From the NCBI RefSeq assembly GCF_003334335.1, contig NZ_QOWQ01000106.1: 1,460 nt of DNA; one strand, 5' to 3'. Numbering within the stretch: position 1 is the stretch's first letter; the number at the start of each line of letters is the position of its first letter. Positions 1-1,460 of the stretch are shown here, one piece after another. Below the pieces are notes generated by a model. That model made no database searches and was not told the origin of the DNA. It was given only the letters and a program-made list of their open reading frames with translations. This DNA comes from Escherichia coli (lineage in GTDB: Bacteria > Pseudomonadota > Gammaproteobacteria > Enterobacterales > Enterobacteriaceae). A program made the position numbers and the translations under genes.

Positions 1-173
1 GCCTGCCGGGGCAGCAGTATGATGAGGAGTCCGGCCTGTATTACAACCGCCACCGCTATTATGACCCGCTGCAGGGGAGGTATATCACTCAGGATCCGAT
101 TGGGCTGAAGGGGGGATGGAATTTTTATCAGTATCCGCTGAATCCGGTTCAGTATATAGATTCAATGGGACTG
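1..173 (+). other. Rhs core C-terminal hyperconserved region, including the DPIGL motif (codons at 93-107) and the terminal PxxxxDxxGL-type motif [10 protein letters not shown] (144-173) that marks the core/CT boundary
   Basis: Direct translation. GC-rich (about 60% by hand count over 1-120) compared with the rest of the window. Confidence 0.85.
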
Positions 174-632
174 GCATCAAAATATGGACACTTAAATAAT
201 GGCGGATATGGAGCGAGACCCAACAAACCGCCTACGCCCGATCCAAGTAAATTGCCGGACATAGCGAAACAATTAAGACTGCCATATCCTATTGACCAGG
301 CCAGTAGTGCGCCTAATGTTTTCAAAACATTCTTCAGAGCATTAAGCCCTTACGACTACACACTGTATTGCAGGAAGTGGGTAAAACCAAATCTGACTTG
401 TACGCCACAGGATGATTCCCAGTATCCAGGGATGGATACAAAGACAGCAAGTGATTACCTGCCACAGACAAATTGGCCAACAACTCAATTACCACCAGGA
501 TATACTTGTGCAGAACCCTATTTATTCCCAGACATTAATAAACCCGATGGGCCAGCAACAGCAGGGATAGATGATTTGGGTGAAATTTTAGCTAAGATGA
601 AACAGAGAACATCGAGAGGAATAAGAAAATGA
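1..632 (+). CDS. Rhs-family (YD-repeat) polymorphic toxin, 3' end only (5'-partial; reading frame begins at position 3; stop TGA 630-632). Encodes the end of the conserved Rhs core plus a variable C-terminal toxin domain of unknown activity. May correspond to an orphan rhs fragment such as E. coli K-12 ybfO, but this cannot be confirmed from the window.
   Basis: Frame 3 is open from position 3 to 632 with no stop. Translation begins [57 protein letters not shown], which is the hyperconserved Rhs core terminus (YYDPxxGRYxxxDPIGLxGGxNxYxY...PxxxxDxxGL). The six-frame track starts this ORF at ATG 165 only because that is the first Met; the conserved Rhs sequence upstream shows the gene continues beyond the 5' edge of the window. 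Confidence 0.92.
174..629 (+). other. Variable Rhs C-terminal (CT) toxin domain, about 152 aa, activity unknown
   Basis: Sequence after the DSMGL boundary: [152 protein letters not shown]. It is rich in Pro, Tyr and Thr, has 3 Cys, and shows no nuclease (HNH, His-Me), deaminase or ART motif that I can recognise by eye. Lower GC than the core. Confidence 0.7.
614..620 (+). promoter_or_regulatory. Shine-Dalgarno sequence (GAGAGGA) for the downstream immunity-like CDS
   Basis: GAGAGGA at 614-620, 8 nt upstream of ATG 629; lies inside the 3' end of the Rhs CDS. Confidence 0.55.
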
Positions 633-685
633 AAAGAGTTTTGTTCTTTTTGCTGATGATATTTGTTAGTTTTGGTGTTATAGCT
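629..685 (+). other. Predicted signal peptide (19 aa) of the immunity-like protein; probable SPase I cleavage after VIA
   Basis: [19 protein letters not shown] followed by DCE. No canonical lipobox, because the residue before Cys is Asp, so a lipoprotein is unlikely. Confidence 0.6.
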
Positions 686-1198
686 GATTGCGAAATACAA
701 GCTAAAGATCATGATTGTTTTACTATTTTCGCTAAGGGTACTATTTTTTCCGCGTTTCCTGTCTTAAATAATAAAGCCATGTGGAGATGGTATCAGAATG
801 AGGACATCGGTGAGTATTATTGGCAAACAGAACTGGGTACATGTAAAAATAATAAATTCACACCAAGCGGGGCGAGACTCTTAATTCGCGTCGGGTCACT
901 ACGCCTTAATGAAAATCATGCCATCAAAGGAACGTTGCAGGAGTTGATAAATACAGCAGAAAAAACGGCGTTTCTCGGCGATCGGTTTAGAAGTTATATA
1001 AGAGCGGGTATCTATCAAAAAAAGAGCAGTGATCCAGTTCAGTTGTTGGCAGTCCTTGATAATTCAATCATGGTAAAATATTTTAAAGATGAGAAACCAA
1101 CTTATGCTCGAATGACAGCACATCTCCCGAACAAAAATGAGTCTTACGAATGTTTAATAAAGATACAGCATGAACTAATTCGTAGTGAAGAGAAATAA
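629..1198 (+). CDS. ybfC: Putative Rhs immunity protein (RhsI-like), 189 aa, with N-terminal Sec signal peptide; predicted periplasmic. Resembles E. coli K-12 YbfC in length and context (tentative).
   Basis: Complete ORF ATG 629 to TAA 1196-1198 with an SD 8 nt upstream. The start overlaps the Rhs stop (ATGA at 629-632), the usual arrangement of toxin/immunity pairs. N-terminus [21 protein letters not shown] has a positive n-region, a hydrophobic h-region and a V-I-A signal peptidase I site. Position immediately 3' of an Rhs CT domain. The gene symbol rests on recalled length (189 aa) and neighbourhood (rhs fragment upstream, H-rpt transposase downstream), not on a verified alignment. Confidence 0.8.
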
Positions 1199-1357
1199 AA
1201 TCTCTTCCTGAGAAAACAAATTAATCATTGTGAAAAATTATATAACTCATGGAATAGGTGTTTATTTTGCGTTCCATTTGCAGGGAAAGATCACGTAACG
1301 CTACTTTTTTGTACTAAATAATTCGAATTTTAAGTTCAACAATTGAGATACTACTTA

Positions 1358-1388
1358 TTGTCTAAAGCTGTTTTTCATAGCTTATACA
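1358..1388 (+). promoter_or_regulatory. Candidate sigma70-like promoter upstream of the transposase gene (speculative)
   Basis: TTGTCT at 1358-1363 (4/6 match to TTGACA) and TATACA at 1383-1388 (4/6 match to TATAAT) with about 19-bp spacing, in an AT-rich spacer. Weak match; this may simply be AT-rich sequence. Confidence 0.15.
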
Positions 1389-1412
1389 TGATCAAATACT
1401 CCTTACATAAAT

Positions 1413-1418
1413 AAGGTG
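1413..1418 (+). promoter_or_regulatory. Shine-Dalgarno sequence (AAGGTG) for the transposase CDS
   Basis: AAGGTG at 1413-1418, 5 nt upstream of ATG 1424. Confidence 0.5.
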
Positions 1419-1423
1419 AACAA

Positions 1424-1460
1424 ATGGAACTTAAAAAATTGATGGAACATATTTCTATTA
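1424..1460 (+). CDS. H-repeat-associated (ISAs1-family) transposase, N-terminal start only (3'-partial, runs off window)
   Basis: ATG 1424 followed by MELKKLMEHISI, which matches the N-terminus of E. coli H-rpt / ISAs1-family transposases (YhhI, YdcC, YbfD-type) as I recall it. Good SD upstream. Only 12 codons are visible, so the identification rests on a short recalled match plus the known association of H-rpt elements with rhs loci. Confidence 0.65.
   Translation, partial: MELKKLMEHISI

What the first reader, a model, noticed from the sequence alone, without database searches (positions are those of the whole stretch)
1199..1460. H-repeat (ISAs1-family) transposase gene immediately downstream of the toxin-immunity pair
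The CDS starting at 1424 (MELKKLMEHISI...) matches the N-terminus of H-rpt-associated transposases, which are classically found next to rhs elements. Its position 225 bp after the immunity stop suggests the IS element bounds the CT/immunity module and may have been involved in its capture, truncation or mobilisation. The left IS end should lie in 1199-1423 but I cannot delimit it.
Basis: partly seen in the sequence, partly recalled or inferred. Interest (0 to 1): 0.4.

Follow-up and report, generated by a model that had tools for sequence, protein, structure and literature searches.

The report
Dead H-repeat insertion sequence beside RhsC
The end of the window is the first 180 bases of a long-known, decayed insertion sequence (the "H-repeat", ISAs1 family; pseudogene ybfQ) that follows the orphan Rhs toxin/immunity pair in the E. 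coli RhsC locus, so this is ordinary and already described.

Summary
An ATG at 1424 opens MELKKLMEHISI, identical over 12/12 residues to the ISEc1 (H-rpt) transposase. Window 1281-1460 matches positions 1-181 of a complete 1291-bp ISEc1 copy at 91% DNA identity.

The whole window is 100% identical to the E. coli K-12-type RhsC locus:
- 1-632: tip of the orphan Rhs toxin gene (ybfO in K-12).
- 629-1198: ybfC.
- 1199-1280: 82-bp spacer.
- 1281-1460: H-rpt.

The inverted repeat is CAGGGAAAGATCACGTAA and matches the right end at 15/18.

The gene is not functional. In 2440 genomes, about 89% of the 2737 carrying this junction, the copy is cut after IS position 381 by a second H-rpt copy. That leaves an 84-codon ORF, the ybfQ pseudogene. 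The other versions inspected carry an in-frame stop, and one also a 313-bp deletion.

I found no support for the IS having captured or truncated the toxin/immunity module:
- No target-site duplications.
- The same module exists without an adjacent IS.
- The homology break lies roughly 25-43 bp before the IS end.
- The IS lies 37 bp inside the island's right edge.

Verdict: real, correctly identified, already known (H-rpt of RhsC). Low interest.

The parts
1..632 (+). 3' end of the orphan Rhs fragment (ybfO in K-12, from own knowledge): end of the Rhs core followed by a variable C-terminal (presumed toxin) tip. Context, not part of the IS.
   Evidence: Annotated as an 'RHS repeat-associated core domain-containing protein' pseudogene missing its N-terminus. 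98% identical to the 3' end of the full-length Rhs core gene of O157:H7. The tip has no Pfam or NCBIfam hit.
629..1198 (+). ybfC, the presumed cognate immunity gene (189 aa). Its start overlaps the toxin stop by 4 bp. Context, not part of the IS.
   Evidence: ORF found and annotated 'protein YbfC'. No Pfam or NCBIfam family. The immunity role is inferred from position only.
1199..1280 (.). 82-bp spacer between the ybfC stop and the IS end. The first ~40 bp (1199-1238) travel with ybfC in other loci. 1239-1280 is specific to this junction and its origin is unknown.
   Evidence: Ungapped identity to the O157 and MLI109 ybfC loci is 33-34/40 for the first 40 bp and 15/42 for the rest. No terminator-like site, no + strand promoter-like site, and no Rfam match.
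1281..1460 (+). Left 180 bp of a defective H-rpt / ISEc1-like (ISAs1 family) insertion sequence, cut by the window end.
   Evidence: The multi-copy alignment shows homology among seven copies in unrelated flanks beginning exactly at CAGGG. blastn maps a 1291-bp ISEc1 copy, positions 1-381, to L001 6083-6462; L001 6083 corresponds to window 1281. Identity is 91.2% over the first 180 bp.
1281..1298 (+). Left terminal inverted repeat (IRL), CAGGGAAAGATCACGTAA.
   Evidence: Matches the reverse complement of the right end of complete copies (CAGGGCAAGATTACGAAA) at 15/18 by my manual comparison of the sequences. Both ends begin CAGGG. The right repeat itself lies outside the window.
1299..1423 (+). 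Untranslated leader of the IS, with a weakened Shine-Dalgarno (AAGGTG at 1413-1418; intact copies have AAGGAG) and a 1-bp deletion before the ATG.
   Evidence: Alignment A1. No sigma-70-like site on the + strand.
1424..1460 (+). First 12 codons (plus 1 nt) of the transposase pseudogene (ybfQ in K-12-type genomes; annotated ybfD in O26-type genomes).
   Evidence: The extended K-12 ORF (84 aa) scores 65.1 bits to NF033564 (ISAs1 family transposase), covering profile positions 1-51 only and falling below the 70-bit cutoff.

Best explanation
Window 1281-1460 is the left end of a decayed copy of the H-repeat (H-rpt, ISEc1-like, ISAs1 family). This copy sits downstream of the orphan toxin/immunity pair in the RhsC locus of E. 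coli; it is the copy I recall Hill's laboratory naming H-rptC1, and the ORF at 1424 is the pseudogene ybfQ. Intact relatives are 1291 bp long. They have ~18-bp imperfect terminal inverted repeats beginning CAGGG, a 143-bp leader, and one 378-aa DDE transposase. That transposase has an N-terminal DDE_Tnp_1-associated domain and a DDE_Tnp_1 catalytic domain. This copy cannot make that enzyme. In most genomes it is cut after IS position 381 by the left end of a second H-rpt copy, so the ORF runs 79 IS codons plus 5 codons of the neighbour's inverted repeat, which supplies the TAA. In the rest it carries a premature stop, and in one form also a 313-bp internal deletion. Shown here: identity, boundaries, defectiveness, and distribution. 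Inferred: today it acts only as a passive repeat. It is a substrate for homologous or microhomology-mediated recombination among H-rpt copies, which would account for the three alternative array forms seen behind the same ybfC junction. The orphan status of the toxin/immunity module more likely comes from displacement by a newer tip at its 5' side than from the IS.
For: The window is 100% identical to K-12-type RhsC loci, annotated RHS / ybfC / ybfQ 'ISAs1 family transposase'. The left end at 1281 comes from the seven-copy alignment and blastn against the 1291-bp ydcC ISEc1 copy. Full-length YdcC scores 413 bits to NF033564 (ISAs1) and hits Pfam PF13808 plus PF01609. The K-12 array is C1 = IS 1-381, C2 = IS 1-1291 (annotated with an internal stop), C3 = IS 21-911 + 1225-1291, and the ORF stops at codon 85. 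The C1|C2 junction 60-mer is present in 2440 of 5426 genomes, against 2737 that carry window 1199-1460. Alternative forms behind the same junction are a single deleted copy and C2+C3 without C1. A mosaic identity pattern between copies suggests recombination or conversion. The same module without an adjacent IS is seen.
Against: The window stops 37 bp into the ORF, so which downstream architecture belongs to this particular source cannot be read directly; both main types are 100% identical over the window. I inspected only five loci with this junction, so a rare genome with an intact copy here is not excluded. Passive behaviour is inferred, not shown. I found no published transposition assay or expression data; one paper notes that transposition of H-rpt has not been observed (PMC3032704).
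Confidence: 0.93

Rival explanations
1. An IS-driven rearrangement (adjacent deletion from the IS left end, or recombination between H-rpt copies) removed DNA between ybfC and the IS. On this view the IS did shape the 3' boundary of the module, though it did not capture it.
For: In O157:H7 about 1.4 kb of orphan immunity genes (NTF2-fold, DUF6258) separates a 98%-identical ybfC module from an intact H-rpt at the same locus. In the window that stretch is absent, and the homology break lies within 43 bp of the IS end. H-rpt copies sit co-oriented just downstream of Rhs/PAAR/VgrG genes or immunity-like arrays in 8 of the 12 loci sampled.
Against: A transposase-made adjacent deletion should break exactly at the IS end, but window 1239-1280 matches nothing in the O157 or MLI109 loci. 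The K-12-type and O157-type IS copies are only 86.7% identical over the first 180 bp. Their right-flank junctions also differ (37 vs ~100 bp from the island edge), so they are not the same insertion. No target duplications are present.
Confidence: 0.15
2. The ORF at 1424 is an intact, active ISAs1-family transposase gene that continues beyond the window.
For: The N-terminus and the left inverted repeat are intact. Intact 378-aa copies exist at other sites and at the RhsC locus of O157:H7.
Against: All inspected loci with this exact ybfC-IS junction are annotated and verified as pseudogenes. 2440 genomes carry the truncating C1|C2 junction. The Shine-Dalgarno is weakened relative to intact copies.
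Confidence: 0.03
3. The 84-aa YbfQ product (the N-terminal 'DDE_Tnp_1-associated' part only) is a retained, functional truncated transposase. It might, for example, bind H-rpt ends as a trans-acting inhibitor.
For: The ORF keeps its start codon and most of the region that corresponds to PF13808 in YdcC (residues 8-94). The junction is ≥99% conserved in 2338 genomes.
Against: The conservation is equally explained by vertical inheritance within a young lineage. Other lineages have a stop at codon 18. The Shine-Dalgarno is weakened and there is no promoter-like site. Nothing tests expression.
Confidence: 0.03
4. A coincidental short match to a transposase N-terminus.
For: Only 12 codons are visible in the window.
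Against: 180 bp of DNA homology, including the 143-bp non-coding leader and the terminal inverted repeat, is shared with thousands of annotated copies.
Confidence: 0

Closest known systems
H-rptC1 / ybfQ pseudogene of the E. coli K-12 RhsC element (Hill laboratory; Zhao et al. 1993, J Bacteriol, cited from my own knowledge because the paper is not in the held library)
   Same: The sequence is 100% identical over the whole window to K-12-lineage chromosomes, with the same neighbours (rhsC, ybfB, orphan Rhs, ybfC, ybfQ, two more H-rpt copies, ybgA).
   Different: Nothing detectable. The O26/O111-type locus is also 100% identical over the window, so the exact source lineage is undetermined.
ISEc1 (intact H-rpt, e.g. 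ydcC in the RhsE region; yhhI at RhsB from own knowledge)
   Same: Same left inverted repeat, leader, start codon and N-terminal 12 residues. 91.2% DNA identity over the 180 bp in the window and 93.4% over 381 bp.
   Different: ISEc1 is 1291 bp with an intact 378-aa transposase. This copy is a truncated or deleted pseudogene. It falls below the ~95% identity I recall ISfinder using for 'same IS', so it is ISEc1-like rather than ISEc1.
ISAs1 family (ISAs1 of Aeromonas salmonicida; IS1358 of Vibrio cholerae O-antigen loci; own knowledge)
   Same: One DDE transposase ORF matching NF033564. CAGGG termini. Size about 1.3 kb in intact relatives. Association with surface and competition loci: two sampled E. 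coli copies lie in O-antigen clusters.
   Different: Those named elements are in other genera and some have demonstrated transposition. For H-rpt in E. coli, transposition has not been observed (PMC3032704).

Membership tests
ISAs1 family insertion sequence | Sequence homology of the encoded protein to the ISAs1 transposase profile (NF033564; Pfam PF13808 + PF01609) | tested here: met
   The full-length relative YdcC, identical over the 12 visible residues, scores 413 bits and hits both Pfam domains. The extended K-12 ORF of this copy scores 65.1 bits, E 5.7e-18, on profile positions 1-51; it falls below the 70-bit cutoff only because it is truncated.
ISAs1 family insertion sequence | Terminal inverted repeats beginning 5'-CAGGG (family hallmark as I recall it from ISfinder) | tested here: met
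   IRL is at window 1281-1298. It matches the IRR of complete copies at 15/18 by manual comparison. The IRR is outside the window.
ISAs1 family insertion sequence | Complete element of ~1.2-1.5 kb with one intact transposase ORF | tested here: not met
   This copy is a 381-bp stump (K-12 type), a 977-bp internally deleted form with a stop at codon 18, or a full-length copy with an internal stop. It is a defective remnant of a family member, not a functional member.
   No direct repeats flank any of the 7 copies or arrays compared. This is not disqualifying for the family.
ISAs1 family insertion sequence | Demonstrated transposition | not testable with these tools
   PMC3032704 states that transposition of H-rpt has not been observed.
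ISEc1 (same IS / isoform) | About ≥95% nucleotide identity to the reference ISEc1 (ISfinder convention, own knowledge) | tested here: not met
   91.2% over IS positions 1-180 and 93.4% over 1-381 against the ydcC copy annotated ISEc1. It is therefore 'ISEc1-like'. The ISfinder reference itself could not be consulted.
H-rpt component of an Rhs element (Hill laboratory definition) | H-rpt homologue located downstream of, and co-oriented with, the Rhs core and tip ORFs inside the Rhs accessory island | tested here: met
   Gene order is rhsC-ybfB-orphan Rhs-ybfC-H-rpt array-ybgA. The island is absent as a unit from 1310 genomes, and the IS lies 37 bp inside its right edge.

The most novel reading that the evidence does not exclude
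H-rpt/ISEc1-like elements may not be random passengers. They may insert preferentially, in one orientation, at the 3' end of polymorphic-toxin/immunity and O-antigen gene arrays, perhaps relying on read-through transcription because no promoter-like site is visible in the leader. Their decayed copies could then serve as recombination handles that add or delete immunity cassettes. Related to this, IS position ~381-384 may be a recurrent breakpoint, since it is used in two different rearrangements.
Probability: 0.06. Interest if true: 0.4.

Novelty: already known. Interest (0 to 1): 0.07.

Why it matters
It matters little beyond correct annotation. The segment should be labelled as the left end of a defective H-rpt (ISAs1-family) copy starting at 1281, with ybfQ as a pseudogene, not as a transposase gene. 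For anyone studying the orphan Rhs toxin/YbfC pair, the module's 3' limit is about 40 bp past the ybfC stop. The adjacent IS is a dead repeat that can still promote recombination among H-rpt copies.

Tried and rejected
(1) A 400-bp query across the K-12 C1|C2 junction was uninformative. The search tool joins permuted pieces of any ordinary IS copy, so 5211 genomes appeared to 'cover' it. I replaced it with a 60-mer at E≤1e-10.

(2) Target-site duplications: flanks of 7 copies compared, none found.

(3) Structured RNA, terminator or promoter in 1199-1460: there was no Rfam match at E≤1 and no terminator-like site. The only promoter-like site is on the minus strand, at a frequency below the shuffle expectation. 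The fold z-score of -2.2 is unremarkable.

(4) I looked for the origin of window 1239-1280 in all fetched loci and found only chance-level 11-16-nt matches.

(5) Simple-insertion and adjacent-deletion models relating the K-12-type and O157-type loci were rejected, because both flanks and the IS copies themselves differ.

(6) Pfam and NCBIfam searches of the Rhs tip and YbfC found no family.

(7) Literature: the original H-rpt paper is not held. Open-access papers mention H-rpt only briefly.

(8) Locus L009 (strain NWU_1; Rhs fragments flanked by rRNA and phage genes) looks like an assembly artefact and was ignored.

Full report
**What the window is.** The full 1460 bp is 100% identical to many complete E. 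coli chromosomes. There it is annotated as the 3' end of an RHS repeat-associated pseudogene, then ybfC, then ybfQ (or ybfD) 'ISAs1 family transposase'. In a K-12-lineage chromosome the gene order is rhsC, ybfB, an N-terminally truncated orphan Rhs gene, ybfC, ybfQ, two further ISAs1 pseudogenes, then ybgA. The window corresponds to L001 4803-6262. This is the distal part of the classical RhsC element.

**Checking the observation.**
- The ATG lies at 1424-1426 and the frame reads MELKKLMEHISI to the window end.
- The 12 residues are identical to the N-terminus of the intact 378-aa YdcC protein, annotated as ISEc1 family transposase.
- That protein scores 413 bits to NCBIfam NF033564 (ISAs1 family transposase). 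It carries Pfam DDE_Tnp_1_assoc (residues 8-94) and DDE_Tnp_1 (residues 102-343).
- The match is not just 12 codons. Window 1199-1460 finds ISAs1-annotated places in 5332 of 5426 genomes. Matches from unrelated sites all begin at query position 79-83, which is window 1277-1281.

**Delimiting the element.** I aligned the window with six other copies that lie in unrelated flanks. Homology begins exactly at CAGGGAAAGATCACG. blastn of a complete copy (L003 2501-3791, 1291 bp) places IS position 1 at L001 6083, which is window 1281.

The left terminus CAGGGAAAGATCACGTAA (1281-1298) matches the reverse complement of the right terminus of complete copies (CAGGGCAAGATTACGAAA) at 15 of 18 positions, by my manual comparison. 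Ends beginning CAGGG are, as I recall from ISfinder, the hallmark of the ISAs1 family.

The anatomy inside the finding is therefore:

| Coordinates | Feature |
|---|---|
| 1199-1280 | 82-bp spacer |
| 1281-1298 | left inverted repeat (IRL) |
| 1299-1423 | leader, with a weakened Shine-Dalgarno AAGGTG at 1413-1418 (AAGGAG in intact copies) |
| 1424-1460 | start of the ORF |

No + strand promoter-like site, no terminator and no Rfam family is detectable. The predicted fold is unremarkable.

**What lies beyond the window.** Three architectures follow the same ybfC-IS junction.

1. K-12 type: C1 = IS 1-381, directly abutted by C2 = IS 1-1291 (annotated with an internal stop), then C3 = IS 21-911 joined to 1225-1291. 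The ybfQ ORF then reads 79 IS codons plus QGKIT, and stops at the TAA inside C2's inverted repeat.
2. O26/O111 type: one copy, IS 1-911 + 1225-1291, with a stop at codon 18.
3. A C2+C3 form without C1. Its IS part is only 98% identical to the window, so it is not the source.

A junction-specific 60-mer for C1|C2 occurs in 2440 of 5426 genomes. That compares with 2737 genomes carrying window 1199-1460 at ≥80% coverage. About 89% of carriers therefore have the ybfQ stump.

None of the inspected versions encodes an intact transposase. Identity between copies is mosaic. The O26-type copy is 100% identical to C1 over the first 180 bp, but only 93.9% over 181-380 and 97.7% to C2 overall. The C2/C3 joint shares a 3-nt overlap. 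Both features point to recombination or conversion among tandem copies rather than clean transposition.

**Did the IS capture, truncate or mobilise the module?** The evidence is mostly negative.

- None of seven copies or arrays has flanking direct repeats.
- The CT/ybfC module exists without an adjacent IS. In O157:H7 it is the resident tip of a full-length RHS core gene at the same locus, 98% identical over window 1-1237. In strain MLI109 it sits in a second locus next to yibA, at 96%. In both it is followed by NTF2-fold and DUF6258 immunity-type genes.
- Homology to those loci is 33-34/40 in the first 40 bp after the ybfC stop and falls to 15/42 thereafter. The break therefore precedes the IS end by roughly 25-43 bp. 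Window 1239-1280 has no identifiable origin.
- 1310 genomes have ybfA directly next to ybgA. Comparison with that empty site shows the island's right edge lies 37 bp beyond the IS right end in K-12, and ~100 bp beyond it in O157. The IS is inside the island, not its border.
- The K-12-type and O157-type IS copies are only 86.7% identical over the first 180 bp and have different junctions on both sides.
- The orphan's missing N-terminus is at its 5' side, away from the IS. It fits the C-terminal displacement model of Rhs diversification (PMC2935791).

A role for H-rpt in removing the 1.4-kb immunity stretch remains possible, and I give it about 0.15.

**Comparison with what is known.** This is the H-repeat that I recall Hill's laboratory describing in the early 1990s as a component of Rhs elements (cited from my own knowledge, because the paper is not held). 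It was later listed as ISEc1 in the ISAs1 family.

The E. coli W genome paper notes that H-rpt-containing regions are annotated as insertion sequences although transposition has not been observed (PMC3032704). A K-12 mobilome study detected no clear circular DNA from ISAs1 elements (bioRxiv 10.1101/2024.07.17.603846).

On membership, the transposase homology, the CAGGG inverted repeat and the Rhs-linked position are all met. 'Complete element with intact ORF' is not met, so this is a defective remnant. Identity to the ISEc1-annotated copy is 91-93%, which makes it ISEc1-like.

**Broader context sampled in passing.** I sampled twelve H-rpt left ends from different sites.

| Context | Number |
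|---|---|
| Downstream of Rhs, PAAR/VgrG or immunity-like arrays | 8 |
| O-antigen clusters | 2 |
| ydcC site | 1 |
| Next to unannotated genes and a group II intron | 1 |

The immediately upstream annotated gene is co-oriented in 9 of 12, which is suggestive but not significant.

**Verdict.** The feature is real and correctly recognised. I located its boundary at 1281. The 'gene' is a pseudogene, the causal role proposed for it is unsupported, and the feature is already known. Interest is low.

Noticed in passing
L013 (empty site), L001 8640-8784, L007 6400-6573: 1310 of 5426 complete E. coli genomes have ybfA directly adjacent to ybgA, with no RhsC island and no H-rpt. The island sits between the ybfA terminator and 'CGTCTACACTTACTCCTG', 35 bp before the ybgA ATG. 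Its last ~25 bp are shared by K-12-type and O157-type islands even though their H-rpt junctions differ.
   Followed up: partly
L014 (strain A65EC) 607-1369: The whole Rhs region is deleted. About 60 bp of the island's left edge is joined to IS position ~384 of the internally deleted H-rpt copy. That breakpoint is 3 bp from the K-12 C1 truncation point (IS position 381), so it is either coincidence or a local hot spot (sequence ...GTATCCTGTATCAG...).
   Followed up: no
window 629-1198 (ybfC) and 3-629 (Rhs tip): YbfC begins [21 protein letters not shown], which looks like a signal peptide with a possible lipoprotein cysteine. That would suggest an exported immunity protein and hence a toxin acting in the cell envelope. 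Neither YbfC nor the Rhs C-terminal tip matches any Pfam or NCBIfam family.
   Followed up: partly
window 1239-1280: The 42-43 bp just left of the IS end has no counterpart in the other ybfC loci or in any fetched locus. Its origin is unexplained.
   Followed up: partly
L001 6463-8706 (outside the window): The second H-rpt copy (C2) is complete at both ends. It is flanked by C1 cut at position 381 and by C3 starting at position 21, with a 3-nt overlap. This is not a simple insertion of one copy into another. C3 and the O26-type single copy share the same 313-bp deletion (IS 912-1224).
   Followed up: partly
L017 2502-4890; L020 2501-3791: H-rpt copies also lie inside O-antigen gene clusters (galF-wzx of O15; O2/O50 cluster), co-oriented with the flanking genes. 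This agrees with the known link between ISAs1-family elements and O-antigen loci.
   Followed up: no
L015 2079-2408: A SymE family type I toxin gene lies on the opposite strand between an Rhs immunity-like array and a truncated H-rpt copy.
   Followed up: no
L009 (strain NWU_1): The ybfC / H-rpt fragment is flanked by rRNA genes, lambda-like red genes and an rhsB fragment. This is probably a chimeric assembly.
   Followed up: no
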